NCBI GenBank assembly: GCA_016215325.1
Contig: JACRJV010000003.1
Coordinates: 36,191-100,190 of the forward strand
Length of the DNA: 64,000 bases
Direction: 5' to 3'
DNA from: Candidatus Uhrbacteria bacterium
GTDB taxonomy: Bacteria > Patescibacteriota > Patescibacteriia > JACRJV01
Numbering within the stretch: the first letter of the stretch is position 1; every line of letters begins with the position of its first letter. The notes beneath the pieces were generated by a model, which saw only the letters and a program-made list of their open reading frames with translations, had not been told where the DNA came from and did not search any database. Shown one piece after another: positions 15,819-56,152 of this stretch. The position numbers and the translations under genes were made by a program.

Positions 15819-15824
15819 AAGGTT

Positions 15825-20941: not shown

Positions 20942-20956
20942 ACCCCAGAGTGTTTA

Positions 20957-23814: not shown

Positions 23815-23865
23815 CGTAGCAAGAGTAAAAGTAGTATAAACGAAGGCGTGACGACAAGCAAGGCC

Positions 23866-38302: not shown

Positions 38303-39520
38303 TTAAAAGTTCCAAAATGCTTTTATCGTCGGGATCTGGAAACTGGCAACCATCATGGCATACAGCTGTTTATACGAGGCAACGGTTTCGCCCGCGGCAT
38401 GGTATTGAATCGAAATAAACCACCGAGACCCACCGGAGGTCACGTCGAAGACAGTCAGCAGACCAGTAGGGCTCGTGATACCGGTAAGCCCTGACTTTGT
38501 GGAAACAGATTTGATTTGCGATGCCGACACGTCCGTGTGTTGCGAAAGATACCATTGCTGCGCAGTAACCGATTGGGTATTGACAACGGCGCTGACCGTC
38601 ACCGACGGACCCGTGGGAGACGTGAATACAATTTCATCGCCCGTGCTGGATGTAGACCGTGCCACCCAGGCCGATGGGTACAACAATTCATAGCCCACAC
38701 TCGGATGATGATATTTGTTGACAATGGTCGTCTCCCAAATCTTTTTGGATGAATCGGGACTGTTGGGGCTAAACAGATTTAAGACTTCTTTGCCGTCAGA
38801 AAACCCATCTTGATCCGTATCGGGATTACTAGGGTCCGTGCCAAATACGATTTCTTCCGAATCACTGAACGCGTCCGTGTCCGTATCGACGGCGGCGGTA
38901 AGCGGAGAATCCTTTGTGTCGGCTTGCACTGTTGGAGGGGTTGCTGTTGTATCGGTTGTTGTTCCCGTTGGAGTATTGGCGGCGCCTGTTGTCGTCCCAT
39001 TAGTTGCTGAATTCGTTCCTGCTGCAGACGCGCCCCCTGTCGCCGAACCGACTGGAGCAGTCCCCGTTGTCGAAGGATCTTGGCCAGAAGGCTTGACAGC
39101 GGTGGAGTCGGGAGCTGTTGATGGGGGGTTGCTCGCTGAGGTATCGGGAGGTGTTGGTGTCGGCGCCGAGTTAGATGGCGACGTCTTGGCGATCTCGGGC
39201 GTTGGTTCATTCGTTCCCAAACGATTCTGTACAAGCATGCTAATACCCACAATCGCCCCTCCAACGACAATCACGACGAGGGTGACGAGCCCGATTTTTT
39301 TCCATGGGAGACTTGCCTTGGGCGGAATGAAAAACTTGGATGGCATGACGGTGACATGTTCTTCCTGAATAAGCGGTGTGCCACCCGCCGGTTTTACAGA
39401 AGGCGCAGATGCGGGTTGAGCAGCGGGAGTTGCAGTGGGAGCAACCGGAGCAGGCGATGCCGGAGGAGCACCCGTGCCGCTGCCGACAGTGGGCAAGTTG
39501 GGTGGAGCAGAGTCGAACAT
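38303..39520 (-). CDS. Pro/Thr/Ala-rich membrane-anchored protein with C-terminal globular domain (hypothetical)
   Basis: Single TM (LVTLVVIVVGGAIVGISMLV), ~170-aa low-complexity P/T/A/S linker, acidic DxDxD motifs (DPSNPDTDQDGFSDGKE). Confidence 0.5.
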   Translation of the reverse strand: MFDSAPPNLPTVGSGTGAPPASPAPVAPTATPAAQPASAPSVKPAGGTPLIQEEHVTVMPSKFFIPPKASLPWKKIGLVTLVVIVVGGAIVGISMLVQNRLGTNEPTPEIAKTSPSNSAPTPTPPDTSASNPPSTAPDSTAVKPSGQDPSTTGTAPVGSATGGASAAGTNSATNGTTTGAANTPTGTTTDTTATPPTVQADTKDSPLTAAVDTDTDAFSDSEEIVFGTDPSNPDTDQDGFSDGKEVLNLFSPNSPDSSKKIWETTIVNKYHHPSVGYELLYPSAWVARSTSSTGDEIVFTSPTGPSVTVSAVVNTQSVTAQQWYLSQHTDVSASQIKSVSTKSGLTGITSPTGLLTVFDVTSGGSRWFISIQYHAAGETVASYKQLYAMMVASFQIPTIKAFWNF

Positions 39521-39586
39521 ACGCGTTAGGAATGAAGAGATAAGCCTGCCTGCCGGCAGGGAGATAACGAATGTTACGATTGAACA

Positions 39587-42500
39587 TTACGGTTTATTGA
39601 GGCGCAACAAATTGGCATTGCACCCATTTGCTCCAATAGATTTGGCAACATTCGAAGCAACACCGTTGACAAACGGGCCGGGAGTCAGTGCGCTAAACGG
39701 ATCCCCAATCTCCCGGTCGCGGCTAAACCCAGGACGACTGGACGGCCATACCTCAAAGAATGTTCCCAAATACCCATCGGCGATAGATGGTACGTTATTC
39801 GGGCCTTTTGCGCTATAGACATACGCGCGAGCATTGCCGGCACTGGGGCATTGGAAGTTTTTTGCTGCCTCATCCCAGCACGTTTGCGGGTCGTGCGGAC
39901 GATTGCATCCGACAAAGTAATTGAGTGGATCACTTGCGATCCGCGGCCCTCCATCAAGATTCTCTTTCAGGGTCTCCTGCCAGCTCGGCCACGTACTGTA
40001 GCTTAACCCACGAATGAACGTCCCGGCGGTGAGTTCGGGGAATTTGCTGTTTTGCGTGGCATAATTCTTGAGACGCACTTCCAAATCACGCAAGTCAGAA
40101 GCCCGCCGCACATCGCGTTTTAGCGCAGTGCGCACCCCAGGATCGTCAATATTAAGCGCGAACTTCCAACGATTGAGCAGCTGTGGGACAACGGATTGCA
40201 TTTCTTTGCGGGCATCCTTTGTGATCGAGAGCAGATACACGTTCGTAAAGAGCTGCTTATATCGTGAACGGGCAGTCATACCATCAGAACCGACAACTGT
40301 ATTATCAAGCACGTCATCATCGCGCAAGCGGGCCATTGTATAATACCACGTATCCCCTTCCTGGATACCATCCACGCAGTCTTCGCCCTCGGGCAATGTC
40401 GGTGCGTAGGTCCGTCGATTCTGGCAATCAATACTGCTGACGCTCGCGCGGTCGGCGCGAGGATTTACAACCGCGTTCGACTCCAAATACCAGCGAGCCG
40501 CGGAGAATTGTTGGCCATTTTGCATCACCGTGAGAGCAATCAAATCAGGCGCACCTGGTTCTCGGAAGTAGAATTGCTTCAATCGCTGGCTGGCAGGGGT
40601 TCGAAGCCGCGGCAATTCGACGCTTTGCAACCGAAGATCTGGCAACAACTTGGGCATTGCGTAGACTTTAATCGAGCTCAATATTCCGGATGCACCCTCA
40701 TTGTCTGCAATGCGATACCGCGGTTCGATGGATTGCGAAATGGGCGCCACCGGCACATTCAAGCCGCTCCCCTGCCGAAGCCATGTTACACTCACCGGCA
40801 TGACCATCGTCCTGGAGAGGGTCCCTTGGCCTACCGTCACCGTGATGTTGGCCGTACCGTTGCCAACAGAACTGATGGCGAGTTGCTCGCTCCCGAGCCC
40901 CGGCTCATCCTGTCCGGAGTGGATTCTGACAATGTTGTTGTTGCCGTCAGATGATGCCCAGGTATAGGTCAGTCCGGTCTTAATTTGTGTGCCATTTTGA
41001 TCGTAGCCCTCTACCTTAAATAAGTGTTGATTTCCCGCTGTCGCCGGATCATCGTCGTCGCTACAGCGATCGCCCACACACGAAAATGCATCACTGCGCA
41101 CTTCTTCCAACGGCACTCCATCGCGGCAGTACCCAATCGAGAACGATTGATATTGACCATTGATGCTCTGTTCCCCCGGAATCCGGCTGAAGTTACCGCT
41201 GCGCAAATGCATGGTCGCGTCATACTGATTAAAGAGGAAGCGATTGGCATAATCTCGAGTGTCGTCAAAGGGGAATGCCCCCACTTGCGATGGCCAGGGA
41301 TGCTCACAGGGGAAGACCTCAACATTAAGTGAGCGCGTTGCCGATGTCCCACCTTGCGCATAAACGCCATCGCCCTCCGCGGTAAATCGAATCGTCGATG
41401 TCCCAGCATCCCCATTTGCGGTGACATACACGCCGCTTAATCGATTGCTTGCATGGATCGAATTGGGCAAAACAGTCCATTGCGCAGATGTGCTTGGCTT
41501 TGGCTCGAGACGCTGATAGAAGCCCAATTGTTTGTTGAGCATATTGGCGGGCGTACCGCTCAAATCCGACAATGTGAGGAGGGTATCGAGCCGCGGATTT
41601 GAAGGGATCACCTCTGCGCGCACATCCAGCCATAACGGTTGTGTGCCTTCTTGATCGGCATAGGCTTGCAAAAGATAACGATGTTGAACACCCGTCCGCC
41701 CTTTGAGCCCATAATAGCAATTCTCCCACTGCGCGAACGGATCGGACGCGCTGTAATTGATGAGCCGGCTCATTGCCTGCCAGTAGTCCGCCGCTGCCGG
41801 GTCCGGACATACGGTATTTGCGGGCCCATCCATGTCATCAGGGCAGGTATCACGACCAGCGCACAAGAAACTGTCGCTATAGATATTAGTAAGTGGTAAC
41901 TCCTCGTCGGCCGTTGTTGCCCGCTGCAACCGCAGCTGGCGCAACATACCAAGGCTTTGCGGCGCGATAAGATCCAATCGCTTCACTTCGCCGCCAAGCC
42001 CTATGGTCAATGAATTATTCGTCTCGTCTGTTTCTTCCACGGATCGCAACCCATCAAGATCAAGGCGAACCGACCGATATGTTGCGAGTGATTGTGTCGG
42101 ATCCTGGAAGACAACATCCACCACCGCATCCGGATCGAGTGGAGAATCCAGCGGCGGGATCACTCCGGAGCCACCCGGAATGGGGGTTGCAAACGTTGAC
42201 TCTTTAAATATTCCATTTTCATACAATAAGGCGGCAAAATTCTGTGTCACCACCCCAGGCCCCAGGTTGATGGCCCGGAACTTCAGCTTCCATATCCCGC
42301 CTTCTTCAAACCGTTCAAAGGGGCTGGCGGTAAATGCCAAATCCGGAAGATTGCGACCCACAATAACCTGACGACCATTGTTTTCTTCGTCGGATTCTTG
42401 GATCATGTTGTCGCGATAGCTTGGATTCCCCCGTATCTGCGTGACAACATATTCAGAACTCGAATCTGGAAAAACTTCCGTATCCTGATCCAACGAATCC

Positions 42501-45500
42501 AGGACCACGCGCAATGCATTCGGTTGGTTCACATTAATATCAGATGGCAAGATAAATTGCAGCGTCAGTGTTGCGCCAGGATCCATCCGCTTCGGCTCTT
42601 GTCTTGGCCATGTATCGAGCCACAAGAGTTTGTTGTTCCAATAGATGCTCACCGGGAAATCCCGCATTGCAGCGATGGACCCTTGATTTTTTATGACCAC
42701 CTGTCCATAGTGCGTCCGCCGTATCATACCGGAACAAACGGGTAAATTTGCACTCGCGCCATCACAAGTCAACGCGCTTAACGATTCGATTGTAAGGTCG
42801 GGGAGCCGCGGCCCTTGATCAATCCCCGCATACGCCAAGGTGATCCAATTATTGACGGACGATCCGGCGCTACTGAATCCTGGCAGGCCCCATGCCGATA
42901 TTCCCAAATACCCTTCGGGATAGTTATGGGCGATGGCAATCTCCGGCAGTGAATTAACGCGGATCTGCGAATCCGCACGGTCGCCGTTTACTTCGAACGC
43001 AAGGTTCGTAAAGGATCCAATCCACCAGTCTAGCGCGGCCTCAATTTCATGGGCATCCCGTTGCTCGTCGCTCGTGGGCGTCGCGATATCGTAGACACGG
43101 ATACGGTACTGATGTTGTGCTTGCCCATCGCGCGCGTACTCGTCTCTGCCGCCAGTGGGGAACGGCCGATTCTGGGAATCGAAGATTTCAACCGACCGAA
43201 CCAATGGCAACGCAACCGTGACCCGCATGGTTTTGCGCGCCGAACGACCATTGATTTGCCGCGCGATCACGGTCACATCAAAGCTGCCGTTGTCTACCGG
43301 CGTTGCGAACAAATCATCCCCTTGATTGGTGCTCTGCCGTTGATGATTGCTTAACTGAACGCCCGCGACACCCGAAGAACCTTGTCCAACAGCCCACTCG
43401 AACGACGCATCGAGCCGACAATCACCATCGGCACTGCAGGCTTGCGCACTCCACCGATGTTGCACTCCCGGATCAGAACCCCGATCATCGGCGCAACGCG
43501 TCCCCCCACAGGCAAACGAGTCGCTCGTTGCCGGGGTATCAGGGCCAGGATCCACAATAATGTTGACATGATCGAGCAGTTTCGGTCCCGGACCAATTTC
43601 CATGGTCGCAGATGCGTTATTGGAAAGCTCGGAATCGCCCACAGCATTATAGGCAAGGATGCGGTAGTGATAGGGGACATCCTGTTGCACGGTCCGATCG
43701 CGGTAGTCTCGCTCCATGGGGTTGACAAATGTCGCCACCAGACAGAAGGCGCCGCTGCCAGAACCGGGAGTTGTCGGACAGGGATTGGTGGGCAGAGGTA
43801 ACTCCGGCTCATCAGCAATAACGGAATCATCCCTGTACAAGCGGAATCCGAGCACCCCCGGACCAGAAGGATGCGGTGACCATTCGAGCGCAATCGTCCC
43901 GTCATCCGCCCATGCGCTTAAATTTGGTCGGTACGGTTCTGTTCCGTCATGTTCGCAATCCGGACAAATTTTACCACTGGCCGGGTCGGATAATGGCGAG
44001 AGTCCCCACTCGTTATAGGCCAAGATGCGATAATGATAGAGGAGATTCGATCGCACAGCGTCATCGCCGTATCGTGTTTGACTGCGGTCAAATACGCCGA
44101 CCAAACAGAGTTGATCGCCAGCGGCCGAGCCTTGAGCGCCGCACGAGGTGGTCGGCAGCGTCGCGAGCTCATCGGGGATCGGCTGGCGGGATCGATACAA
44201 TCGATACTCGTCAAATGGGGCACCCTCGGTATTCGGCAGCCATCGCACTTCAACCGCCTGGCCGTCATCCGTGGCCGAAAGATCGTCCGGTTTAAACGGG
44301 GCCATCCCGATCACTGTGGCGCACTCTTCTATTGTCGCTTCCCCTTCGCCCATCGCATTATAGGCGGCAACCTGATAACACATCACGGACCCCGGGGCGA
44401 GCCCTTCGTCATCGATCACCGTCTCGCTTACTTGTCGTAAGAAAGCAAAACTCCCGCCGTTGCCGTTGCGGCGATAGATGCGGAATCCCAGAATTGCACC
44501 CGTGCCCGATGAGGCCGGAGCTTGCCATCGGATCGTCGCGTGCTCCACGAGTCCTTGGACGGTCAGTGTACGAGGGACTCCTGGCACTTCACCCACCGCC
44601 GTGGGGGTCGCACATTCTTCGCTCGCGGCAACGCCTTCGCCTTGCTGATTATGGGCGCTTACCGCATAGCAATAGACGCGGCCGTTGGCAAGCCCAGAGT
44701 CCTCCAGACGAAGATTCGTGAGCGTCGTCACATCCTTCAAATAGATCAGCGCTCCGTCGTTGCCTTCACGGCGATACACCGTGTACTTGCCAATCGCAGT
44801 CGTGCCGGCGCTTGCAGGCGCTTCCCATGTGAGGACGATGCGGCGATCCAATCCATCCGCAACAACATTCCGTGGCATTCCTGGAACCACCCCCGACGCC
44901 GTTGGAGTTGCGCACCGTTGGTCGGTGACCTCCCCTTCGCCGTGACCGTTCACCGCAGAAACGGCGTAACAATAGACAGTGCCGTTCTCCAGGTTCGCGT
45001 CGTCAAGCAAGAGCGCTGCCGCATTGTCAACATTTCTATAAAAAACCTGCTCTCCGGCATTGCCCACCTTGCGATACACCGTATACTGATCGATGGGAGA
45101 TGAACCGGCGGAAAGCGGTGGCTGCCATGTAATGCGGATGTTCTCATCCGCGGGAGCTGCCGCCAAGTTCCGAGGAATGCCCGGGACGCTATTGCAGGTC
45201 GTACACATGCTCGCGCTAGCGGGATTGGACAACGGCGAATCCCCGACACCATTATACGCCAGGATACGATAATGGTAGACAGTATCCGGCTTTACCGCAC
45301 CATCAACAGCGGTTTCGGCATCTTCCGCAATTGTTGCAGGAACCAAGCAGAACGCATCACTGGCAGTGCTCGCGTTTGCCCCGCAAGAATCGGTCGGCAA
45401 CGAGGTCGGCGCATCCGGGATTGCTTGGCGCGATCGATACAATCGGAACCCTGTCGGCCTCGCTCCCGCAGGACTCACAGACCACGAGAGCGTAAGCGCA

Positions 45501-48500
45501 GCGGCATTGAGCGGACTATTGGTTGCGGTTAAATCCTGGGGCGCAAACGGCGCACCACTGCCGCCGTCCTCGTATTGGCACGTTGCGTCGCATCCATCGC
45601 CATTATTGCGGTTGCCATCATCGCACTGCTCGCCGGGATTAATGGCATTGTTGCCACATAGCTGCGGGTTCTCTAACTCGCATTGTGCGCTGCATCCATC
45701 GCCATTGCTGGTATTGCCATCATCGCACTGCTCGCCGCTATCGATATCCCCGTTGCCGCACGAAGGTCCTGTGCCAATTGTTGCCTTGGCAAATGCATTA
45801 TTCGAGGACGGCGAGTCACCGGCATCGTTGAATGCGAGAATACGGTAGTGATAGATGGTCCCCACAACTACTGCTTGATCAGAGTAATCTTGTGCAGACT
45901 CCTCAAACCGCGACACAAAACAAAATGCAGCGCTTGCGGATGCAGAATCGGTGCCACAGGAAACAGTCGGCAGATTTTCCACTTCGTCCGGTATGGCCTG
46001 GGTGGAACGGTACAGTCGATACCCTTTGGGCGCAGCCCCGTTGGAATTGGATTGCCACACAAGGTGAACACTGCCCGCGCCCTCTGTCGCAGAAAGTACG
46101 GGCGGGAATGGACGCGTTCCATCCTTGCCGCAGGTGGGGCATGCCTTGGCGCTGGCAGGATTTGAGAGCGCCGAATCCCCATCCGCGCCAATCCCAAGAA
46201 TGCGATAATGATACAAAACGTTGGATGTAACGGCGCGGTCGCGATATTCGCGATCCCCTGCCGCAAGGGCACCACTGGCGAGACAGAATGCATCGCTGGC
46301 ATTTTCTTGGCTTGTTCCGCAAGAAACGGTTGGCAACGGCAATGCCGGCTCATCCGGGATTTGGGATCGGGATCGGTACAATCGATATCCGGTCGGCTGT
46401 GGGCCTTGGCTGTTGGGATCCCATTGGATAATGGTGGCGGTTACTCCATCGGTCGCGGTGAGCGTGGGCGGGAATGGTTCGGCGCCCGTGTGGCCACACG
46501 TCGAACAGGTTTTTGCGCTGCCCGCATTGGAAAGCGCGGAATCGCCCGCATCGTTATATCCCAAAATACGGTAGTGGTAGAGCGTATTGGGCTTAATTGC
46601 TCCATCATTGTAATGACGGATATTGCCTTCGAATTGACTCACTCGGCAGAATTCGTTATTAGCATTGCTCGCATTGTTCCCGCAAGAAACGGTCGGCAAC
46701 GATACAGGAGCGTCGAGTATAGGCTGAGTGGATCGATAGAGAGTGAACCCTATTGGCTGGGGCCCATACGGATTCGGGACCCAATCTACGGCGATCCGGC
46801 TGCTTCCATCCGTTGCTGCAAGGTCCGGTGGATATGGTACCGTTTCTTGCCCTTCGGTGCGCTGGCATGTATTCGTACAACCAACACCCGATTTTCCATT
46901 TTGTCCCCCGGCATCGCACTGCTCGCCCGGATCAACTCGATTGTTCCCACACAGCTTAGCGTCTTCTAATTGACACGAACCACTGCACCCATCCCCATCG
47001 CTAGTGTTGCCATCATCGCATTGTTCTCCTCGGGCAGATTGGACCGTCCCATCCCCGCATTCTTCCCCATAACATTGATCTCCAATCAAGACAGGACGCT
47101 CAAGTGGGCAATCAACTACGTTGCACACTTGGCAATCAGCTCCACCGCAATCAATGCCCGTCTCGTCGGCATCTTGGATGCCATTGGCGCAATGCCCTCC
47201 TCCCAGTCCTCCGCAAGAGCGGCAATCTGCCCCTCCGCAATCCACATTGGTCTCATCCGCATCCCTGCGCAAATTAGTACAGTGGCCGCCCACACAGGTG
47301 TTGGTGACTGGATCGCAGGTTTGCCCGTTTTGGCAATCGACATCGGATCGACATTGCGGTGGTCGGCATGACCCGTCGATACATTGCATGCCATACGGGC
47401 AATCCACATCAGTGGAACACAGCGGCACGCAAATGTTGAGCAGCGTGTTGCAGATTTCGCCATCGCGGCAATCATCGTTGCTATCGCAACCCGGGGGCCG
47501 GCATTGTCCAGAACGCAGATCACAAATAAATCCAGGGCGGCAATCGCTGTCTGCCCGACATTCTTGCCCATTATCCGCGCTCTGGCACCGACCGTTGACG
47601 CAGCGGCCGAACGGGCAATCGGCATCCACCGAGCATTGGAGATCTCGACTCGTTAATATATCAAACGGCAACCCATTGGAGGCGACCTCTGCTTGATCGG
47701 ACACTGTCTTCAACCCCCATGGGCACACGCCACGGAAGGTGACCCAACGGCATTCTTGTCGGATGTTGTAGTGGATCACGGTGCGCAATACGACGTCGTC
47801 GCTTTCGGCGGAATCTGGCACTCGCCATCGCACGCTTTCGGGCGTCCAGCTTTGATAGCGCGCATCGAGCCGACCAAGGGTAACCCCCCGAGCATCGGAA
47901 GCCTTACCAAAACGCACACCGCGCGCGACAATAGAATCACCCGTCAATCCATACGATGGGATCAGCCGACAGAGCCCAGGACCAATCGGATCTTGCGTCA
48001 GCGTGAACGCCCCGCTCTGTTGCGGTTTGGTGGTGAGCGCGCCCGCCGGGGTGGTCGGAGCGGTTGTCAACCGAACCAATCCATTTTTTGCGCCCTTGGG
48101 GATTTGGACAATAACCCAGCGATCAGACCACGCAGATCCCGCACACTCTTCCGGCAATATGGCTTGGGCGTCGTCCGTGGGATCTTTGGGGTCTCCTTCA
48201 AAAATCACTTTGCCCGGCACATATCCAAAATTTCCACCGATGATCGTCATCCACCCGCCCTCTGGGCCCCGGTCTGGACTCAAATGATCAATAAACGGGT
48301 CCATGGTAAATGTCACAGGGTTAGATTGGTTCTTGACGACCGTTGCAAGGACATACCCCGTACGCGACCGATTGGGCACCTCCACTTCTGCGCTCGCATC
48401 GGACCACGAACCATATTTCTCCACCGGAATGCCAATAAATTTTACAACGCTGTCTTGGCGCGTATCGCCCAAGTTGTCACCACGCAACGCAACCGGGTCG

Positions 48501-49894
48501 GTGACGGCTCCATGATCTGGATCAAGAGTGCAGACCGCTGGACGAATTGTAGTGTTGGAGGTAAAGGGCCGGACGTTGCTCGTCCCCGCGCTGGTTGTCA
48601 CCGTAACGGGATAGGATCCCAGCTTGAGCGTCGGCGGCGCTTGCGCAATGATTTCGTTATTGGACCATCGCGAACATCCTAAGCCCGCAGGAAGATCGCC
48701 AAACTTGACAATGCTGGTATCCTGCGAACGGCCAAAATTCTTCCCTGTGATCGTAACATAGGTATTTGCATAACTGGCAGCGATCCCGTTATCCGGCGTA
48801 ATGGCGGTGATGATGGGTTTGCCTTCCACGCAAATGCCGCCGACACAATATCGTGAAGCGCAGTCATAATTAAACCGGCATTCGGCCCCTAACGGAAGCC
48901 CGGGTGTTGGTGTAAATGTCCACGCATAGGTGCACGAAAGCGCCTTGGGCGGATCAAACGTGACGGTAATGGGGTCCAACATTGTCCCATTGCCATCCGT
49001 GTCATACAACCGCACCTGCAACTTGGCCGTTTGGCCGACTTTCTTGCCAATCGTACTCCAGGTGATGGTAAGCACGCCGTTGGCCGAAGGGTCGAATGCG
49101 CTCCATGCGACAGGAGAGCCGTCCGACAGCAACACCCCATGCGAAATCGCGCGATCATCCGTAGCGCCCACCAGCACGATCACTTGGTCATTGGCAGACA
49201 CATGGCTGCCGTCCCGCGGCGTTATCCACGAGCCCGTTGGTGCGATCGTATCGATCCCGGTGCCAATACTGATTTCGCGTTCACACGGGTGTTGATTGGA
49301 ACAACTCAAACTCGCCCCCGAACGATTGCGGATATCTGCCCCCTTAAGCGCAATGCCCACACGAGCGTTGTCCGAAAAGCACCCTTGCTTAGGGGAAGCC
49401 GCACAGGAGGCTGCGGGGTGAAACTCCATCCACGAAACCGCCGCATTCGCGTCCGTCGGAGCGAGCGCCCATGCGCCCGGCAGTAACGCATTGTTCACTG
49501 TGACACTGGCCAATGTACCAAAGTCACGCACACTTGCCTCATTCAGTGGCTGTGAAAAGAATAAACGAATTGCTGCATTGGACGGCGCTGCCGTTATGGC
49601 AGGCGTTATCGCCGACAAATAAAATGTTCCAACCGGCGGCAACACTGTTTGGGGCAGGATCGGCGTGACCGTTATCGTTGGTTGCGGTCGCGTGAGCCAC
49701 CAACCGAATGTAAGAGAAATTAACAGCCCCACCACTGTTATGGCTCCAGATACCGTCATTTTCCGTACTGAATTGACACCCGTCGGATCGATTGTTTCGC
49801 TGCTCTTCTCTCTCCACGCAACAACAAATGCGCCGGCGCCGACGAGCGTAGAAATAATCGCAAGAGATTCGATGAACCAAAGGAAGATTCTCAT
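39587..49894 (-). CDS. Giant (3435 aa) cell-surface protein: N-terminal anchor, IPT/TIG domains, Myxococcus-type Cys-rich repeats, Fn3-like repeat array, large beta-rich C-terminal region
   Basis: Uninterrupted 10.3-kb ORF; GEQCDDGNTSDGDGCSGSCQLE-type Cys-rich repeats (x4); >=8 repeats with YHYRIL(A/G)YN..GDS.LSN.ASA; three classical Fn3 units (TVYRK...YCYAVSA.N..GEG). Confidence 0.8.
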   Translation of the reverse strand: MRIFLWFIESLAIISTLVGAGAFVVAWREKSSETIDPTGVNSVRKMTVSGAITVVGLLISLTFGWWLTRPQPTITVTPILPQTVLPPVGTFYLSAITPAITAAPSNAAIRLFFSQPLNEASVRDFGTLASVTVNNALLPGAWALAPTDANAAVSWMEFHPAASCAASPKQGCFSDNARVGIALKGADIRNRSGASLSCSNQHPCEREISIGTGIDTIAPTGSWITPRDGSHVSANDQVIVLVGATDDRAISHGVLLSDGSPVAWSAFDPSANGVLTITWSTIGKKVGQTAKLQVRLYDTDGNGTMLDPITVTFDPPKALSCTYAWTFTPTPGLPLGAECRFNYDCASRYCVGGICVEGKPIITAITPDNGIAASYANTYVTITGKNFGRSQDTSIVKFGDLPAGLGCSRWSNNEIIAQAPPTLKLGSYPVTVTTSAGTSNVRPFTSNTTIRPAVCTLDPDHGAVTDPVALRGDNLGDTRQDSVVKFIGIPVEKYGSWSDASAEVEVPNRSRTGYVLATVVKNQSNPVTFTMDPFIDHLSPDRGPEGGWMTIIGGNFGYVPGKVIFEGDPKDPTDDAQAILPEECAGSAWSDRWVIVQIPKGAKNGLVRLTTAPTTPAGALTTKPQQSGAFTLTQDPIGPGLCRLIPSYGLTGDSIVARGVRFGKASDARGVTLGRLDARYQSWTPESVRWRVPDSAESDDVVLRTVIHYNIRQECRWVTFRGVCPWGLKTVSDQAEVASNGLPFDILTSRDLQCSVDADCPFGRCVNGRCQSADNGQECRADSDCRPGFICDLRSGQCRPPGCDSNDDCRDGEICNTLLNICVPLCSTDVDCPYGMQCIDGSCRPPQCRSDVDCQNGQTCDPVTNTCVGGHCTNLRRDADETNVDCGGADCRSCGGLGGGHCANGIQDADETGIDCGGADCQVCNVVDCPLERPVLIGDQCYGEECGDGTVQSARGEQCDDGNTSDGDGCSGSCQLEDAKLCGNNRVDPGEQCDAGGQNGKSGVGCTNTCQRTEGQETVPYPPDLAATDGSSRIAVDWVPNPYGPQPIGFTLYRSTQPILDAPVSLPTVSCGNNASNANNEFCRVSQFEGNIRHYNDGAIKPNTLYHYRILGYNDAGDSALSNAGSAKTCSTCGHTGAEPFPPTLTATDGVTATIIQWDPNSQGPQPTGYRLYRSRSQIPDEPALPLPTVSCGTSQENASDAFCLASGALAAGDREYRDRAVTSNVLYHYRILGIGADGDSALSNPASAKACPTCGKDGTRPFPPVLSATEGAGSVHLVWQSNSNGAAPKGYRLYRSTQAIPDEVENLPTVSCGTDSASASAAFCFVSRFEESAQDYSDQAVVVGTIYHYRILAFNDAGDSPSSNNAFAKATIGTGPSCGNGDIDSGEQCDDGNTSNGDGCSAQCELENPQLCGNNAINPGEQCDDGNRNNGDGCDATCQYEDGGSGAPFAPQDLTATNSPLNAAALTLSWSVSPAGARPTGFRLYRSRQAIPDAPTSLPTDSCGANASTASDAFCLVPATIAEDAETAVDGAVKPDTVYHYRILAYNGVGDSPLSNPASASMCTTCNSVPGIPRNLAAAPADENIRITWQPPLSAGSSPIDQYTVYRKVGNAGEQVFYRNVDNAAALLLDDANLENGTVYCYAVSAVNGHGEGEVTDQRCATPTASGVVPGMPRNVVADGLDRRIVLTWEAPASAGTTAIGKYTVYRREGNDGALIYLKDVTTLTNLRLEDSGLANGRVYCYAVSAHNQQGEGVAASEECATPTAVGEVPGVPRTLTVQGLVEHATIRWQAPASSGTGAILGFRIYRRNGNGGSFAFLRQVSETVIDDEGLAPGSVMCYQVAAYNAMGEGEATIEECATVIGMAPFKPDDLSATDDGQAVEVRWLPNTEGAPFDEYRLYRSRQPIPDELATLPTTSCGAQGSAAGDQLCLVGVFDRSQTRYGDDAVRSNLLYHYRILAYNEWGLSPLSDPASGKICPDCEHDGTEPYRPNLSAWADDGTIALEWSPHPSGPGVLGFRLYRDDSVIADEPELPLPTNPCPTTPGSGSGAFCLVATFVNPMERDYRDRTVQQDVPYHYRILAYNAVGDSELSNNASATMEIGPGPKLLDHVNIIVDPGPDTPATSDSFACGGTRCADDRGSDPGVQHRWSAQACSADGDCRLDASFEWAVGQGSSGVAGVQLSNHQRQSTNQGDDLFATPVDNGSFDVTVIARQINGRSARKTMRVTVALPLVRSVEIFDSQNRPFPTGGRDEYARDGQAQHQYRIRVYDIATPTSDEQRDAHEIEAALDWWIGSFTNLAFEVNGDRADSQIRVNSLPEIAIAHNYPEGYLGISAWGLPGFSSAGSSVNNWITLAYAGIDQGPRLPDLTIESLSALTCDGASANLPVCSGMIRRTHYGQVVIKNQGSIAAMRDFPVSIYWNNKLLWLDTWPRQEPKRMDPGATLTLQFILPSDINVNQPNALRVVLDSLDQDTEVFPDSSSEYVVTQIRGNPSYRDNMIQESDEENNGRQVIVGRNLPDLAFTASPFERFEEGGIWKLKFRAINLGPGVVTQNFAALLYENGIFKESTFATPIPGGSGVIPPLDSPLDPDAVVDVVFQDPTQSLATYRSVRLDLDGLRSVEETDETNNSLTIGLGGEVKRLDLIAPQSLGMLRQLRLQRATTADEELPLTNIYSDSFLCAGRDTCPDDMDGPANTVCPDPAAADYWQAMSRLINYSASDPFAQWENCYYGLKGRTGVQHRYLLQAYADQEGTQPLWLDVRAEVIPSNPRLDTLLTLSDLSGTPANMLNKQLGFYQRLEPKPSTSAQWTVLPNSIHASNRLSGVYVTANGDAGTSTIRFTAEGDGVYAQGGTSATRSLNVEVFPCEHPWPSQVGAFPFDDTRDYANRFLFNQYDATMHLRSGNFSRIPGEQSINGQYQSFSIGYCRDGVPLEEVRSDAFSCVGDRCSDDDDPATAGNQHLFKVEGYDQNGTQIKTGLTYTWASSDGNNNIVRIHSGQDEPGLGSEQLAISSVGNGTANITVTVGQGTLSRTMVMPVSVTWLRQGSGLNVPVAPISQSIEPRYRIADNEGASGILSSIKVYAMPKLLPDLRLQSVELPRLRTPASQRLKQFYFREPGAPDLIALTVMQNGQQFSAARWYLESNAVVNPRADRASVSSIDCQNRRTYAPTLPEGEDCVDGIQEGDTWYYTMARLRDDDVLDNTVVGSDGMTARSRYKQLFTNVYLLSITKDARKEMQSVVPQLLNRWKFALNIDDPGVRTALKRDVRRASDLRDLEVRLKNYATQNSKFPELTAGTFIRGLSYSTWPSWQETLKENLDGGPRIASDPLNYFVGCNRPHDPQTCWDEAAKNFQCPSAGNARAYVYSAKGPNNVPSIADGYLGTFFEVWPSSRPGFSRDREIGDPFSALTPGPFVNGVASNVAKSIGANGCNANLLRLNKP
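43597..46837 (-). repeat. Intragenic tandem array of ~130-150-aa Fn3-like repeat units inside the giant gene (approximate bounds)
   Basis: Recurrent motif PxGYRLYRS...P.(L)PT.SCG...AFC...YHYRILAYN..GDS.LSNPASA at regular spacing between aa ~1020 and ~2100. Confidence 0.55.
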
Positions 49895-49995
49895 GAATGA
49901 TCTAATAATTTATTCATTTCTTAGTTTATTGTGTCGCGCCCGATCAATACATTAATAAACCAATAAATGAGTAAACAATTAAACCAATAAATATG

Positions 49996-51471
49996 TTATG
50001 GTCCTTCGCATTGCGCAAAACAATTTTGGTAAATATCTTCAACATCGGATGAAATGAGCCCCTGCAGAACCGCTGCTGCCGCAAAAGGCGCATGGGTTAT
50101 CGATATGGTTGATTGCTGTGCGGTGAAGTTTGTCCCCACCCGCGCTCGCCACGCTCCATCGCCTCCGAGACGAACACTGCGGCGATCAACCGATCCCGCG
50201 CGCAGAATGGTCGAAAAACGAGCGTTCACCGGCGTGTTGGGATCAATGCCGCTAGAATCAGGGCTGGGCTGGACTTCCACGATCCGCGGAGTCGATTGGT
50301 TGAGTTGTTGCCCTGTTGAATAGGAGACTAATGCTTTTGATTGCGCTGGCAGGAGGTTGCCCTGAAAATCTCGCACACCAACACGGGGGTAACTATTGGG
50401 GTCGACAGCGCGCACCCACACGCTCACAGCGCCGACAAACGGGAAGCAGCGCACATCCCGCCGGCATTGATTTTGCCCACACCTTCCGGCCGGGAAGAAT
50501 TCCGTCAAGCGCTCACCCTCGGCGACCGTCCATTGGCCCTCTGATGCGGTCTTGCCGACCCGCACCTCCAACCCGCTTTCAAAACTCAAGGGGTCAATCA
50601 TCGTATTCCAGGCCAATTGAATGCCCGCGTTGGCGGCCACATTGGTCGACCCCGATCGAGGGAATGTTTCCCCAAGCATGGGAGGATTACGATTCTCCGA
50701 CTGGCCCACCGTAAACGACCATCGATAGACACCCTCGGCGCCAAACAATGGCTGGCCGTCTGCAGTGCGCAATCCTTTCAACTCAACAAATATCTTGGTC
50801 TCCCGTGCACCGGTACTCAAATTTTTCAGCGGGTCCAAGGCAAACACCGTGGCAGCGCTATTGGACCTGGCGCGCGCAGCGACCAACGGTCCGGGGCTGG
50901 CGATACTCCCCCCTTGCCAGATGCGGACAAAACGATCAGAAGCGAGATCATCTGCGAGATCCGATGTGGTTCGGTCGTCAATAATTGTTTTCCGATCCAT
51001 CGATTGATCAAACCACAAGTAAAGAGAAGAATTGGAAGGAATTGAACTTGCGTCTCGTTCAGGCCAATGCCGATCGATTGTCAATATCTTCACCGCGCCC
51101 ACGGACTGTGATCGTTCAATATTAGCGGGTGCGCTCGTGAGAGGCCGTGATACCCGCCAAAGCGCGGCAATCACTGTTGCCGCGATCATCACGGCGCTTG
51201 CAATAGACCAGATAATGACGGGTTGCATTGATCGCTGCTGTTCGACCCCGCTGCCGTCGACCGGCACCGCACGGTAGTAGCTCCACTCCTGCGCCGCTTT
51301 TATGATGCATCCCACCGCAATAATGCCAAAAACCATTGCCAATATAATAGCAATGGTTGGGCGCACATACACGGCCGTTTGTGCCAATACAGGCAACGGC
51401 ATCAGCAATGCGACAATTGCGATCACTCGAGTTCGAACGTTCACAGACGATCGTTGGTACAAAGGGGACAA
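49996..51471 (-). CDS. Hypothetical polytopic membrane protein with large extracytoplasmic domain
   Basis: 491 aa; three N-terminal TM segments then soluble domain; immediately upstream (same strand) of the giant surface protein gene. Confidence 0.45.
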   Translation of the reverse strand: MSPLYQRSSVNVRTRVIAIVALLMPLPVLAQTAVYVRPTIAIILAMVFGIIAVGCIIKAAQEWSYYRAVPVDGSGVEQQRSMQPVIIWSIASAVMIAATVIAALWRVSRPLTSAPANIERSQSVGAVKILTIDRHWPERDASSIPSNSSLYLWFDQSMDRKTIIDDRTTSDLADDLASDRFVRIWQGGSIASPGPLVAARARSNSAATVFALDPLKNLSTGARETKIFVELKGLRTADGQPLFGAEGVYRWSFTVGQSENRNPPMLGETFPRSGSTNVAANAGIQLAWNTMIDPLSFESGLEVRVGKTASEGQWTVAEGERLTEFFPAGRCGQNQCRRDVRCFPFVGAVSVWVRAVDPNSYPRVGVRDFQGNLLPAQSKALVSYSTGQQLNQSTPRIVEVQPSPDSSGIDPNTPVNARFSTILRAGSVDRRSVRLGGDGAWRARVGTNFTAQQSTISITHAPFAAAAVLQGLISSDVEDIYQNCFAQCEGP

Positions 51472-51525: not shown

Positions 51526-51765
51526 TCAACGCGAAAATTTACGTTTCTTGGGTTCTGGCAATTTTCCAATCCGGGCCAGATATTCATTGTGGCTGACAAC
51601 ATCGTTCCGACGCAACGCTGACTCTCGCTGTTGTGCTTTGCTTTTTGGACTTTTGTAAAAACGGATCTTCCGCGCTTCGATCAACCGTCCGCTTTGGATG
51701 AGAACACGGTTAAACCGTCGCAAGAATCCTTCGAACGCTTCTCCTTTTTTTCGTTTGACGAGCAT
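51526..51765 (-). CDS. rpsU: 30S ribosomal protein S21
   Basis: Basic 79-aa protein LRRFNRVLIQSG...IEARKIRFY; perfect SD AAGGAGGTGA 7 nt upstream of ATG at 51765. Confidence 0.8.
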   Translation of the reverse strand: MLVKRKKGEAFEGFLRRFNRVLIQSGRLIEARKIRFYKSPKSKAQQRESALRRNDVVSHNEYLARIGKLPEPKKRKFSR

Positions 51766-51783
51766 ACTAATCACCTCCTTCAA

Positions 51784-54718: not shown

Positions 54719-56152
54719 ATGCAACCAATTTCTCCGATAAATTTTCTCCATGAGCACCAGAATACGCAACGCAGCAGGACGCGGCGCCGCGCGGGCGTGT
54801 TGGCCGCTGTGGGCATCATTGCCGCGATCCTCTCTTCACCAACGCTGCGTCGCCCACTACTGCCCCCATCTGTCGAACGTGTTGTGGGATCGGTGGAGCA
54901 ATTTTCTATTTTCCACCTTGCTTCTAGCGCGGATCGGTTGCTGCAGGGCGAGCAAGAAGATCGCATTAATATTCTCTTATTGGGTGTCGGCGGCGAAAAT
55001 CATGACGGTGCGTGGCTGACCGACACGATTATGTTGGCTAGTTTGAAACCCAGCACAAAACAAGTCGCGCTTCTTTCACTGCCACGAGATATGGTGGTAC
55101 CCACGCAAAACGGACAATGGCGCAAAATCAACTCTGTCCACGCTGATGCGGAGCTGACCAGTCTGGGTGCGGGCCTTGGAGCGATCCAATCGACCACTGA
55201 GTCCATCACTGGACTCACCGTACCGTATGTTGTTCGCATTGACTTCCAAGGATTCACAAAGTTGATCGATGAGCTGGGTGGAATCGATATCAATGTAGAA
55301 CGGACAGTAGAGGACTACCATTACCCCATCCTGGGGGCAGAAGAAGATCCGATCTATGCCAACCGTTACGAACATCTTGTCATTCCCAAAGGATTTCAAC
55401 ACATGGATGGGGAACTCGCGCTCAAGTTTGTACGCAGCCGATATGCGCTGGGGGCCGAAGGATCGGATTTTTCGCGCTCCCGACGGCAACAGCAAGCACT
55501 CTCGGCAGTCAAGGAGAAGGTGTTGAGTGCCTCCACGCTCCTCTCGCCCCGCAAAGTGACGGCGATTTTAAATCTTTTGCAACAACATACTGCCACCACG
55601 TTCGAAGTATGGGAGATGCTGCGACTTCGACAATTAATCGACGGTGTGGATACGGGCAACATCGCGCTGACCGTATTGGACGACAGCCCATCTTCTCCCC
55701 TGGCCTCCAGCCGCGGCATCGATGGCGCCTACATCCTTGTCCCCAAAGGGGGGAATTTTGAACGCATCCAGCAAATGGCCCAGGTCATGTTCGAGGGCCG
55801 AGAATTGATCCGACCGGAATTTGGACAACAACCTTCCGCTTCCCCGACACGGCTGACCGGCGTCAAGATGAGCGTTGAGGTCCTCAATGGGACGACGCTG
55901 CCCGGATACGCGACCCGAATTGCCCAACTTCTCGAAACCAATGGCTTGAGCGTTAACTCTGTCGGCAATGCTCCCGTGCGCGATGCGACCGCAACGATAG
56001 TCTATATGAATGGTTCCACTCAAACTCTGGAAACAACGGCCAACCGTATCGCCCGATTGGTGGGGGGCGCTGTCAGTAGTGACATTCCACCATGGTTGCG
56101 GCAATATAAGAGTGCAAGCCCGATCGTCATTGTATTAGGACCGGAGCAGTAA
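54719..56152 (+). CDS. LytR/CpsA/Psr (LCP) family glycopolymer transferase with C-terminal LytR_C domain
   Basis: TM anchor, INILLLGVGGENHDGAWLTDTIMLASL and LSLPRD LCP motifs. Confidence 0.85.
   Translation: MQPISPINFLHEHQNTQRSRTRRRAGVLAAVGIIAAILSSPTLRRPLLPPSVERVVGSVEQFSIFHLASSADRLLQGEQEDRINILLLGVGGENHDGAWLTDTIMLASLKPSTKQVALLSLPRDMVVPTQNGQWRKINSVHADAELTSLGAGLGAIQSTTESITGLTVPYVVRIDFQGFTKLIDELGGIDINVERTVEDYHYPILGAEEDPIYANRYEHLVIPKGFQHMDGELALKFVRSRYALGAEGSDFSRSRRQQQALSAVKEKVLSASTLLSPRKVTAILNLLQQHTATTFEVWEMLRLRQLIDGVDTGNIALTVLDDSPSSPLASSRGIDGAYILVPKGGNFERIQQMAQVMFEGRELIRPEFGQQPSASPTRLTGVKMSVEVLNGTTLPGYATRIAQLLETNGLSVNSVGNAPVRDATATIVYMNGSTQTLETTANRIARLVGGAVSSDIPPWLRQYKSASPIVIVLGPEQ

What the first reader, a model, noticed from the sequence alone, without database searches (positions are those of the whole stretch)
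39587..49894. 3435-aa giant surface protein with Myxococcus-type Cys-rich repeats and a long Fn3-like repeat array, flanked by two dedicated membrane proteins
A single 10.3-kb ORF encodes an N-terminal membrane anchor, four IPT/TIG-like domains, a Cys-dense region including four GEQCDDGN..GDGCS..C repeats, at least eight ~140-aa repeats each ending YHYRILAYN..GDS.LSNPASA, three classical Fn3 domains and a ~1300-aa non-repetitive beta-rich C-terminal region. It is co-transcribed with a polytopic membrane protein (49996-51471) upstream and a Pro/Thr-rich anchored protein (38303-39520) downstream, all on the ftsAZ strand. Such a protein could be an adhesin, an S-layer-like protein or a host-attachment protein, and a likely acceptor for the adjacent glycan. 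DNA-level repeat identity also makes this a probable assembly or variation hotspot.
Basis: seen in the sequence. Interest (0 to 1): 0.6.

Follow-up and report, generated by a model that had tools for sequence, protein, structure and literature searches.

The report
Giant membrane-anchored surface fibre, Uhrbacteria
A real, uninterrupted 3,435-residue gene in a tiny uncultured (Patescibacteria) bacterium encodes a membrane-anchored chain of about two dozen small domains, probably an attachment fibre, that ends in a widespread but undescribed two-part module with a pilin-like half.

Summary
The ORF at 39587-49894 (-) is real and intact. The window is a Candidatus Uhrbacteria MAG contig, and GenBank annotates only the C-terminal 1,873 aa of this gene.

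Confirmed:
- N-terminal anchor, which is a two-helix hairpin
- four TIG-like units
- four TIGR02232 Cys-rich repeats
- three classical Fn3 domains

Corrected:
- There are six ~120-aa Cys-loop Fn3-like repeats, not at least eight of ~140 aa.
- DNA repeats are 60-80% identical and the longest exact repeat is 24 nt, so this is not an assembly or variation hotspot.
- The upstream protein is a 2-TM hairpin plus Big_5 Ig-like domains, not a polytopic protein.
- The C-terminal third is not featureless. It holds a CARDB domain and a conserved ~340-aa terminal module.

New:
- The module's core matches more than 750 protein clusters, yet has no Pfam, NCBIfam or PDB sequence match.
- The cassette of 2TM-Big_5, giant and TM-TSP3-PsbP-like genes sits in the same place (HisRS-HIT-bS21 ... 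YbeY-DagK-FtsAZ) in two complete distant relatives, and its upstream half in a third, truncated one. The giant's length there is 2,008-3,435 aa.

Best reading: a conserved surface fibre or adhesin of the known class of large Cys-rich CPR surface proteins, with an uncharacterised tip module.

The parts
39587..49894 (-). Giant gene, 3,435 aa plus stop codon
   Evidence: Single ORF. No N bases. GenBank carries only aa 1563-3435 of it, as MBI5134731.1.
49691..49894 (-). aa 1-68: two-helix membrane hairpin (TM1 ~3-27, basic loop, TM2 ~46-68). Inferred topology is N-out/C-out.
   Evidence: Hydropathy. The same TM-basic loop-TM design occurs in orthologues P0006 and P0008 and in the upstream protein. 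The topology is inferred from the positive-inside rule.
48935..49687 (-). aa 70-320: Ig-like region. It is absent from orthologues P0006 and P0008.
   Evidence: Weak Big_7 match at aa 219-281. Matches P0093, P0082 and P0064. Missing in P0006 and P0008.
47765..48934 (-). aa 321-710: small Cys knot followed by four TIG/IPT-like domains
   Evidence: Pfam TIG E 3e-16. Internal similarity of aa 361-476 to 534-663. 43-44% identical to P0006 and P0008.
47069..47764 (-). aa 711-942: Cys-dense region. Contains the conserved CRxVTFRGxCPWG motif, ~6 short disulfide-knot units and two C..D.DET..DCGG..C..C units.
   Evidence: 10-16 Cys per 100 aa. Internal repeat aa 754-798 against 826-867. Conserved in orthologues.
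46850..47068 (-). aa 943-1015: first pair of TIGR02232 (Myxococcus-type) Cys-rich repeats
   Evidence: DUF4215 match.
45752..46834 (-). aa 1021-1381: Cys-loop Fn3-like repeats R1-R3, 120-122 aa each, ending YHYRIL
   Evidence: 45-54% aa identity. Match fn3 and Pur_ac_phosph_N only weakly.
45563..45769 (-). aa 1376-1444: second pair of TIGR02232 repeats. Part of a block duplication with aa 943-1080.
   Evidence: 52-59% identity for aa 943-1080 against 1376-1513.
45194..45541 (-). aa 1452-1567: Cys-loop Fn3-like repeat R4
44300..45187 (-). aa 1570-1865: three classical Fn3 domains
   Evidence: Pfam fn3 E 2e-39 and 5e-35. Internal identity 39-50%.
43580..44290 (-). aa 1869-2105: Cys-loop Fn3-like repeats R5-R6
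41990..43579 (-). aa 2106-2635: unassigned region followed by a CARDB domain (aa 2517-2630). It starts with the first 'D[SA]F.C.G..C.DD...QH' unit.
   Evidence: CARDB E 8e-8. No other Pfam match. aa 2118-2213 resembles aa 2928-3023.
40613..41989 (-). aa 2636-3094: unassigned region. It holds the conserved 'CE.PW ... YCRD' connector (CEHPW at about aa 2860-2870, position estimated rather than computed; YCRDG at aa 2922) and a ~140-aa insert (aa 2935-3075) shared only with fragment P0005.
   Evidence: No Pfam match. Motif positions. The same connector is seen in relatives. P0005 aligns over aa 2734-3389.
40163..40612 (-). aa 3095-3244: terminal module, lobe 1 (beta-hairpins plus helix; motif N..Q.S...WY)
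39590..40162 (-). aa 3245-3435: terminal module, lobe 2 (long helix plus small sheet; type IV pilin-like fold without the hydrophobic N-terminal helix) and a poorly conserved C-terminal tail
49996..51471 (-). Upstream partner: two-helix hairpin plus three Big_5-type Ig-like domains. The true start is probably ~30-35 codons inside the ORF.
   Evidence: Pfam Big_5 E 1e-11. Aligned with orthologues of 423-425 aa. Conserved immediately upstream of the giant gene in L001, L002 and L003.
38303..39520 (-). Downstream partner: Pro-rich N-terminus, one TM helix, Pro/Thr-rich linker, TSP3-type acidic repeats and a PsbP-like C-terminal domain
   Evidence: Orthologues in L001 and L002. hhalign of its C-terminal domain against module lobe 1 gives probability 65%, E 6e-5.
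49895..49995 (-). 101-nt AT-rich spacer with a ~16-nt periodic repeat in front of the giant gene. It is absent in relatives, where the two genes abut or overlap.
39545..39560 (-). Terminator-like hairpin in the 66-nt gap after the giant gene
   Evidence: The number of such sites in the region is no greater than in shuffled sequence.

Best explanation
The gene encodes a surface fibre of a Patescibacteria (Candidatus Uhrbacteria) cell.

Proposed build:
- A two-helix hairpin at the N-terminus holds the protein in the cytoplasmic membrane. Its basic loop faces inside and the rest of the chain lies outside.
- About two dozen small, mostly beta-sandwich and disulfide-rich domains follow: Ig-like, 4 TIG, Cys knots, 4 TIGR02232 repeats, 9 Fn3-type, CARDB and unassigned units. 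They form an extended, rigid stalk.
- If the stalk is fully extended it would reach tens of nanometres. This is an inference from typical domain sizes.
- The far end carries a conserved two-lobed module: a Mog1/PsbP-like lobe packed next to a type IV pilin-like head that lacks the hydrophobic assembly helix.

Proposed function: the module is the working end and binds a partner, which could be a host-cell surface, a matrix component or another envelope component.

The two conserved neighbours are probably co-anchored accessory subunits of the same surface structure. One is a hairpin-anchored Big_5 protein. The other is a TM-anchored TSP3/PsbP-like protein.

Shown: the ORF, the domain content, the conservation of the module, the conservation of the cassette, and the fold similarity.
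Inferred: topology, extension, adhesion, and the accessory role of the neighbours.
For: - ORF and domains.
- Organism: the neighbouring proteins match GenBank entries of a Candidatus Uhrbacteria bacterium contig exactly.
- Genetic code: the canonical prfB +1 frameshift site shows that UGA is a stop codon.
- Anchor: two hydrophobic segments with a basic loop, conserved in orthologues and in the upstream protein.
- Terminal module: an exhaustive HMMER search gives 1,099 hits, 750 of them at E<1e-10, nearly all to aa 3213-3364. In the 149 best representatives other than the window's own protein it lies just after an N-terminal signal or anchor (81), at the C-terminal end of N-anchored proteins, of which the intact ones are ~1,470-4,600 aa long (33), or in the middle of the protein (35).
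- Fold of the module.
- Relatives share the N-terminal TIG block and the module but have different middles.
- Cassette and gene order are conserved in L001 and L002, and the upstream half in the truncated L003, although FtsZ identity (L001, L002) is only 62-65%. The cassette proteins are 30-44% identical, so they evolve faster than the housekeeping genes.
- Literature: large Cys-rich extracellular proteins with Myxococcus-repeat similarity, and giant membrane proteins, have been proposed as attachment factors in CPR bacteria (PMC4736985; PMC8080830).
Against: - No known adhesive or carbohydrate-binding domain was detected, and no ligand can be named.
- In the two syntenic orthologues the module lies mid-protein and is followed by ~800 aa with TSP3 repeats. 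It is therefore not always the physical tip.
- The locus is conserved at depth among housekeeping and cell-division genes. That fits a core envelope component as well as it fits an adhesin.
- There are no expression, localisation or read-level data.
Confidence: 0.6

Rival explanations
1. The protein is a structural envelope component rather than an adhesin. The giant and its two neighbours would form a constitutive surface layer, spacer or sheath (S-layer-like) that shapes or protects the ultra-small cell. The conserved module would mediate self-assembly or wall contact.
For: - The cassette is conserved in the same chromosomal position across distant relatives. This is more typical of core envelope genes than of accessory adhesins.
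- The upstream partner is built from Big_5 domains, a type first described in an S-layer protein.
- The module occurs in hundreds of otherwise different proteins.
- Lobe 1 resembles envelope-biogenesis proteins such as DcrB and LpqN.
Against: - No SLH or other S-layer anchoring or lattice domain was found.
- The middle of the protein differs completely between orthologues, and length ranges from 2,008 to 3,435 aa. That is unusual for a lattice-forming protein.
- The membrane hairpin anchor argues for single tethered molecules.
Confidence: 0.2
2. The protein works with the type IV pilus system. The pilin-like head at the end of the giant would dock onto pilus filaments or pilus machinery, or would bind pilin helices through the Eag/DcrB-like lobe. 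This would couple a long fibre to pili, which are abundant in CPR bacteria.
For: - Lobe 2 has a type IV pilin or pseudopilin fold.
- T2SSG is the only Pfam family that recurs among homologues.
- The best structural neighbours of lobe 1 include PA0094 and SciW. From my own knowledge, these belong to the Eag family of chaperones that bind transmembrane helices.
Against: - There is no prepilin leader and no hydrophobic alpha1-N helix, so the domain cannot polymerise as a pilin.
- No pilus genes lie next to the giant gene or next to three short module-bearing genes examined.
- All fold scores are low.
Confidence: 0.1
3. The long ORF is an assembly artefact: a chimera or a collapsed repeat array. 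The real gene would be the 1,873-aa protein annotated in GenBank.
For: - GenBank annotates only aa 1563-3435.
- The genome is a metagenome-assembled one and no second copy of this sequence exists in the collections.
Against: - The upstream 1,562 codons are in frame and free of stops. They encode significant TIG, TIGR02232 and Fn3 domains and a membrane anchor.
- The N-terminal block is 43-44% identical to, and in the same order as, that of syntenic orthologues which also end with the module.
- Internal repeats are only 60-80% identical at the DNA level and the longest exact repeat is 24 nt, so there is no substrate for collapse.
- Accession numbering leaves no separate protein for the upstream 4.7 kb. 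This points to a mis-called start codon.
Confidence: 0.03
4. The protein is mainly a carrier for the nearby glycan, that is, a heavily glycosylated surface protein.
For: The window holds dTDP-rhamnose genes (29.5-32 kb), a nonulosonic-acid-type sugar cluster (about 15.8-24.8 kb) and an LCP-family gene (54.7-56.2 kb).
Against: - The sugar genes are separated from the cassette by unrelated housekeeping genes: AdoHcy hydrolase, RF2, HtrA, FtsZ/FtsA, DagK and YbeY.
- No glycosyltransferase lies within the cassette here or in the relatives.
- The LCP gene suggests that the glycans go to the cell wall.
Confidence: 0.15

Closest known systems
Large cysteine-rich extracellular proteins of CPR/Patescibacteria (described for Peribacteria, PMC4736985; giant membrane proteins of Vampirococcus, PMC8080830)
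   Same: Very large proteins with a signal or membrane anchor at the N-terminus, extracellular, Cys-rich, and with similarity to Myxococcus Cys-rich repeats. They have been proposed to act in attachment, and they belong to the same superphylum.
   Different: Those reports give no domain-level family. They do not describe the conserved terminal module, the hairpin anchor or the conserved three-gene cassette found here. The function is unproven in every case.
Fibrillar adhesins of bacteria (stalk of tandem Ig-like/Fn3 domains plus an anchor plus a binding domain)
   Same: A long stalk of tandem beta-sandwich domains (TIG, Fn3, CARDB), one anchored end and a distinct non-stalk module.
   Different: The polarity is reversed relative to the classical Gram-positive type: the membrane anchor is N-terminal and there is no LPXTG sorting signal. 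No recognised adhesive domain is present. The candidate binding module is of unknown function and lies mid-protein in some orthologues.
Type IV pilins and type II secretion pseudopilins (for example PilA1 of C. difficile, EpsG, PulG, TcpA)
   Same: Lobe 2 has the long helix packed on a small antiparallel sheet. It carries the typical R-D-x-x-R-x-x-D-L ... Y ... G-x-Y-P sequence pattern at the start of the head domain (recognised from my own knowledge of pilins).
   Different: There is no prepilin leader, no Glu5 and no hydrophobic alpha1-N helix. The domain sits after 3,200 residues of another protein, or after an ordinary signal peptide in the short homologues. It therefore cannot be a filament subunit.
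Mog1/PsbP-fold envelope proteins (DcrB, LpqN, MTC28, PsbP) and DUF1795/Eag-type proteins (PA0094, SciW)
   Different: There is no significant sequence similarity, Foldseek is not significant, and our protein carries extra Cys-containing insertions. The function of this fold varies widely between its members.
Myxococcus-type cysteine-rich acidic repeat proteins (TIGR02232 / DUF4215)
   Same: Four repeats score far above the curated threshold.
   Different: The repeats make up only about 4% of the protein. The repeat family has no assigned function.

Membership tests
TIGR02232 cysteine-rich acidic repeat (myxo_disulf_rpt) | Repeat HMM score above the curated cut-off | tested here: met
   110.9 bits against a cut-off of 20.8, four stretches. 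GEQCD motifs at aa 956, 990, 1387 and 1421.
Fibrillar adhesin | Stalk of tandem beta-sandwich 'stalk' domains | tested here: met
   fn3 E 2e-39, TIG E 3e-16, CARDB E 8e-8. Nine Fn3-type units found by self-comparison.
Fibrillar adhesin | Cell-surface anchor | tested here: inconclusive
   An N-terminal two-helix hydrophobic hairpin is predicted from hydropathy only. There is no C-terminal LPXTG-type signal: the protein ends ...NLLRLNKP.
Fibrillar adhesin | Recognised adhesive or ligand-binding domain | tested here: not met
   None found in Pfam or NCBIfam. The terminal module has no annotated relatives.
Fibrillar adhesin | Demonstrated binding to a surface or host | not testable with these tools
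   Requires experiment.
Type IV pilin / pseudopilin | Prepilin (class III) leader with a cleavage site, followed by the hydrophobic alpha1-N helix | tested here: not met
   The only hydrophobic segments in the giant are aa 1-68. The pilin-like helix begins at aa ~3252 and is amphipathic. Short homologues start with ordinary signal peptides.
Type IV pilin / pseudopilin | Head-domain fold: alpha1-C helix packed on an antiparallel sheet | tested here: met
Type IV pilin / pseudopilin | Sequence-family membership (Pfam T2SSG / N_methyl) | tested here: not met
   No match for the window protein. T2SSG matches at E 0.026-5 in 4 of 27 homologues, below the threshold.
Mog1/PsbP-like fold | Significant structural match to family members | tested here: inconclusive
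S-layer protein | S-layer anchoring or lattice domains (for example SLH) | tested here: not met
   None detected in the giant or its neighbours. Only Big_5 Ig-like domains were found, in the upstream protein.
S-layer protein | Forms a two-dimensional lattice and is highly abundant | not testable with these tools
   Requires cryo-EM and proteomics.
VirB2/TrbC-type T4SS pilin hairpin (PF18895) | Pfam match of the N-terminal two-helix hairpin | tested here: not met
   No match in aa 1-600 at E up to 1. A distant relative, P0064, does match at E 4e-10.
Type I-secreted RTX/Bap-type giant adhesin | RTX repeats or a C-terminal T1SS signal, and a retention module | tested here: not met
   No such domains in Pfam or NCBIfam.

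The most novel reading that the evidence does not exclude
The conserved cassette (hairpin-anchored Big_5 protein, giant, and TM-TSP3-PsbP-like protein) would build a Patescibacteria-specific surface organelle. Its two-lobed terminal module, a PsbP/Eag-like lobe plus a 'headless-helix' pilin fold, would be a new class of recognition or docking domain. It might capture partner-cell surface structures or pilin helices. The same module would be reused in hundreds of CPR surface proteins as the common working end of their host-attachment repertoire.
Probability: 0.25. Interest if true: 0.7.

Novelty: new variant of a known kind. Interest (0 to 1): 0.45.

Why it matters
How ultra-small, host-dependent Patescibacteria attach to and recognise their partners is largely unknown. 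Their giant surface proteins are usually left as 'hypothetical'.

This locus provides three concrete things:
- A corrected gene model. The public record lacks the anchor and the first 45% of the protein.
- A conserved three-gene cassette that can be traced across distant Uhrbacteria.
- A compact ~150-340-aa module that is widespread (more than 750 clusters at 50% identity), un-annotated and amenable to structure prediction.

The module could be expressed and tested for binding. If it is the binding end, it would give a handle for predicting host range and for comparing attachment systems across the radiation. If the protein turns out to be an ordinary structural envelope protein, the finding remains a useful annotation correction and little more.

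Tried and rejected
Searches and look-ups that failed or gave little:
- The full-length homology search timed out.
- The word-indexed search with the C-terminal 1,336 aa found only the protein itself. With the 362-aa tail it found nothing, not even the protein itself, so that negative is a tool limitation. The exhaustive HMMER search superseded both.
- Exact-sequence look-ups of the giant and of its GenBank version found no contig.
- A PDB sequence search with the C-terminal third and a profile search with the module gave nothing meaningful.
- The AFDB50 fold library was unavailable.
- Foldseek against the PDB was not significant.
- The scan of representative genomes returned only two loci, one of them a short contig labelled Gammaproteobacteria.
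- Literature searches for the module, for PF25832 and for pilin-like giant proteins in Patescibacteria found nothing specific.

Ideas considered and rejected:
- Recent DNA-level duplication or a variation hotspot.
- The upstream protein as a polytopic transporter.
- A true pilin subunit, because there is no leader and no hydrophobic helix.
- A pilus-gene neighbourhood for module proteins.
- The precomputed Pfam PF25832 on the GenBank protein being the module. Other module proteins carry no Pfam label, so PF25832 must lie elsewhere in aa 1563-3435. I could not identify it.

The similarity between the giant's N-terminus and the upstream protein is only marginal (BLASTP E 0.003). I treat it as a shared design, not as proven paralogy.
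Full report
**Observation.** The window holds a single uninterrupted ORF at 39587..49894 on the minus strand. It has 3,435 codons, an ATG start and no ambiguous bases. The neighbouring proteins are exact matches to GenBank proteins of one 109,379-bp contig of a 'Candidatus Uhrbacteria bacterium' MAG in the Patescibacteria/Parcubacteria group. These are the 405-aa protein (MBI5134730.1, locus tag HZA86_00615), FtsZ and HisRS.

The giant gene is present in GenBank only as MBI5134731.1, which has 1,873 aa. That sequence is exactly aa 1563-3435 of the ORF. The accession numbers between it and HisRS leave room for exactly three proteins. The window has three genes there: the Big_5 protein, bS21 and HIT. 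So the first 1,562 codons appear to be unannotated in the public record (inference).

Those codons are clearly coding. They carry the membrane anchor and significant TIG, TIGR02232 and Fn3 matches, and they align with orthologues. A canonical prfB +1 frameshift site (GGGGG..CTT TGA C) shows that UGA is read as a stop codon here, so translation with table 11 is appropriate.

**Domain anatomy**:

| aa range | Content |
|---|---|
| 1-68 | Two hydrophobic helices separated by a basic loop |
| 70-320 | Ig-like region (weak Big_7 match) |
| 321-710 | Small Cys knot and four TIG-like units |
| 711-942 | Very Cys-dense region of short knot-like units |
| 943-1015 and 1376-1444 | Two pairs of TIGR02232 repeats |
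| 1021-1381, 1452-1567, 1869-2105 | Six Fn3-like repeats of 120-122 aa, each with a Cys-containing loop, ending YHYRIL |
| 1570-1865 | Three classical Fn3 domains |
| 2106-3094 | Largely unassigned; holds one CARDB domain (2517-2630) and one internal repeat (2118-2213 against 2928-3023) |
| 3095-3435 | Terminal module |

The repeats are 45-54% identical at the protein level and 60-80% identical over at most 118 nt at the DNA level. The longest exact repeat is 24 nt, and Tandem Repeats Finder reports nothing of note inside the ORF. These are old duplications. Nothing here would drive assembly collapse or rapid copy-number variation.

**The terminal module.** An exhaustive HMMER search of 1.84 billion representatives with aa 2640-3435 gave 1,099 hits, 750 of them at E<1e-10. 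Nearly all of them matched only aa ~3213-3364. The list of the best 150 includes the window's own protein (P0001); the other 149 were analysed. Within these the module has three placements:
- 81 proteins carry it directly after an N-terminal signal peptide or anchor.
- 33 carry it at the C-terminal end of the protein. The complete ones are ~1,470-4,600 aa long with an N-terminal hydrophobic anchor, which is the plan seen here; the rest are shorter proteins or fragments.
- 35 carry it in the middle of the protein.

In the giants the module is preceded by a conserved 'CE.PW ... YCRD' connector. The module has no match in the Pfam copy used, in NCBIfam or in PDB sequences. Sixteen homologues from the annotated collection carry no Pfam label on it.

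An AlphaFold2 model built with 26 homologues (pLDDT 73, pTM 0.75) shows two lobes:

T2SSG is the only Pfam family that recurs, below threshold, among the homologues. The domain has no prepilin leader and no hydrophobic alpha1-N helix. It is a pilin-like fold, not a pilin.

**Context and relatives.** The two closest full-architecture relatives are P0006 (2,602 aa) and P0008 (2,008 aa). Both lie in the same gene order as in the window:

signal peptidase - HisRS - HIT - bS21 - [two-helix hairpin + Big_5 protein] - GIANT - [TM + TSP3 protein(s), the last with a PsbP-like end] - YbeY - DagK - FtsA - FtsZ - HtrA

A third locus shows the same upstream order before its contig ends. In those relatives the Big_5 gene overlaps the giant gene by 4 nt or is separated from it by 6 nt, which suggests an operon. 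In the window there is instead a 101-nt AT-rich spacer with a 16-nt periodic repeat upstream, and a terminator-like hairpin in the 66-nt gap downstream. Co-transcription is therefore plausible but not shown.

The genomes are distant. FtsZ is 62-65% identical and HisRS 53-55%. The cassette proteins are more diverged, at 30-44%. Relatives share the hairpin, the TIG block, the Cys knots and the module, but their middles differ: TSP3 repeats, FG-GAP and other domains. In P0006 and P0008 the module is followed by ~800 further residues.

The C-terminal domain of the downstream partner shares the 'N..L S...WY' motif with lobe 1 and aligns to it by hhalign at 65% probability, E 6e-5. This is suggestive only. 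The upstream protein is a hairpin-anchored chain of Big_5 domains, and its true start is probably ~30-35 codons inside the listed ORF. It is not a polytopic protein.

**Mechanism.** The best-supported reading is a surface fibre tethered by its N-terminus. The conserved basic loop between the two helices places the loop inside and the long C-terminal chain outside (positive-inside rule, inference). The extracellular-type and disulfide-rich domains would form a long stalk. The conserved two-lobed module is the most likely functional end.

Large Cys-rich extracellular proteins with Myxococcus-repeat similarity, and giant membrane proteins, have already been described in CPR bacteria and proposed as attachment factors (PMC4736985; PMC8080830). 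The general kind is therefore known.

What goes beyond those reports is the defined family plan (hairpin anchor ... module), the conserved three-gene cassette, and the un-annotated module with a pilin-like lobe. Adhesion itself, the ligand, and the role of the neighbours are inferred, not shown.

Rivals:
- **Constitutive envelope or S-layer-like structure.** Favoured by the deep conservation of the locus. Disfavoured by the variable middle and the lack of lattice or anchoring domains.
- **Link to type IV pili.** The fold is suggestive, but no pilus genes lie nearby.
- **Assembly artefact.** Very unlikely, for the reasons given above.
- **Acceptor for the nearby sugar pathways.** Untested. Those genes lie 15 kb or more away, beyond unrelated housekeeping genes.

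**Verdict.** It belongs to the known class of giant Cys-rich CPR surface proteins. Its anchor, its conserved cassette and above all its widespread, uncharacterised terminal module make it a new variant worth modest follow-up. Interest 0.45.

Noticed in passing
window 45206-49894 (aa 1-1562 of the giant): The GenBank record appears to start the gene at Met1563 (MBI5134731.1, 1,873 aa). That leaves 4.7 kb unannotated, including the membrane anchor, the TIG domains and the Cys-rich repeats. Consecutive accession numbers leave no protein for this stretch.
   Followed up: partly
window 32976-32990 (minus strand), upstream part of the RF2 gene 31941-33045: Canonical prfB programmed +1 frameshift site (GGGGG TTT CTT TGA C). 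The listed 330-aa RF2 ORF therefore lacks its first ~25 codons, which lie in another frame. The site also shows that UGA is a stop codon in this organism.
   Followed up: partly
window ~15800-24800: A cluster for a nonulosonic-acid-type (pseudaminic or legionaminic acid-like) or amino sugar. It has a PseB-like dehydratase, a fused RmlD-like/DegT aminotransferase, a class III aminotransferase, a CMP-type cytidylyltransferase, GtrA, a UDP-sugar dehydrogenase and an epimerase. GC content of window 1-24 kb is 0.46-0.50, against 0.51-0.58 for 24-58 kb, which may indicate a horizontally acquired block.
   Followed up: partly
window 49945-49991: An AT-rich spacer before the giant gene holds ~3 copies of a 16-nt unit (TTTATTGGTTTA-type on the coding strand). 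The spacer is absent in relatives, where the genes abut. It could be a lineage-specific promoter or operator.
   Followed up: no
window 51526-51783 (minus strand): A small gene for ribosomal protein bS21 lies between HIT and the Big_5 protein. It is conserved at the same place in L001, L002 and L003.
   Followed up: partly
L001 13930-14565; L002 11582-12268: Relatives carry an extra small TM + TSP3-repeat protein (211-228 aa) between the giant gene and the PsbP-like partner. It is missing in the window. Their giants also carry TSP3 repeats after the module, whereas the window's giant ends with the module.
   Followed up: partly
P0064 (4,605 aa), aa 44-111: A distant giant relative has an N-terminal hairpin that matches Pfam T4SS_pilin (PF18895, E 4e-10), plus FG-GAP, Big_5 and TIG domains and the same module near its C-terminus. 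This hints that the two-helix anchors of this family may derive from VirB2/TrbC-type pilins. The window protein itself does not match.
   Followed up: partly
L003 (contig CAZNTM010000048.1, 6,667 bp): A contig filed under an 'uncultured Gammaproteobacteria' MAG carries the Uhrbacteria-type order SPase-HisRS-HIT-bS21-Big_5 protein-giant, with 42% identity to the window's TIG block. It is probably mis-binned.
   Followed up: no
window 54719-56152 (plus strand): An LCP (LytR-CpsA-Psr) family protein with a LytR_C domain is divergently oriented from the signal-peptidase-HisRS block. It suggests that glycopolymers are attached to the wall, as in monoderm bacteria.
   Followed up: no
window 30459-30914: The 151-aa dTDP-4-dehydrorhamnose 3,5-epimerase-like ORF also matches Polysacc_synt_C (E 6e-13). 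This is an odd double match for so short a protein.
   Followed up: no
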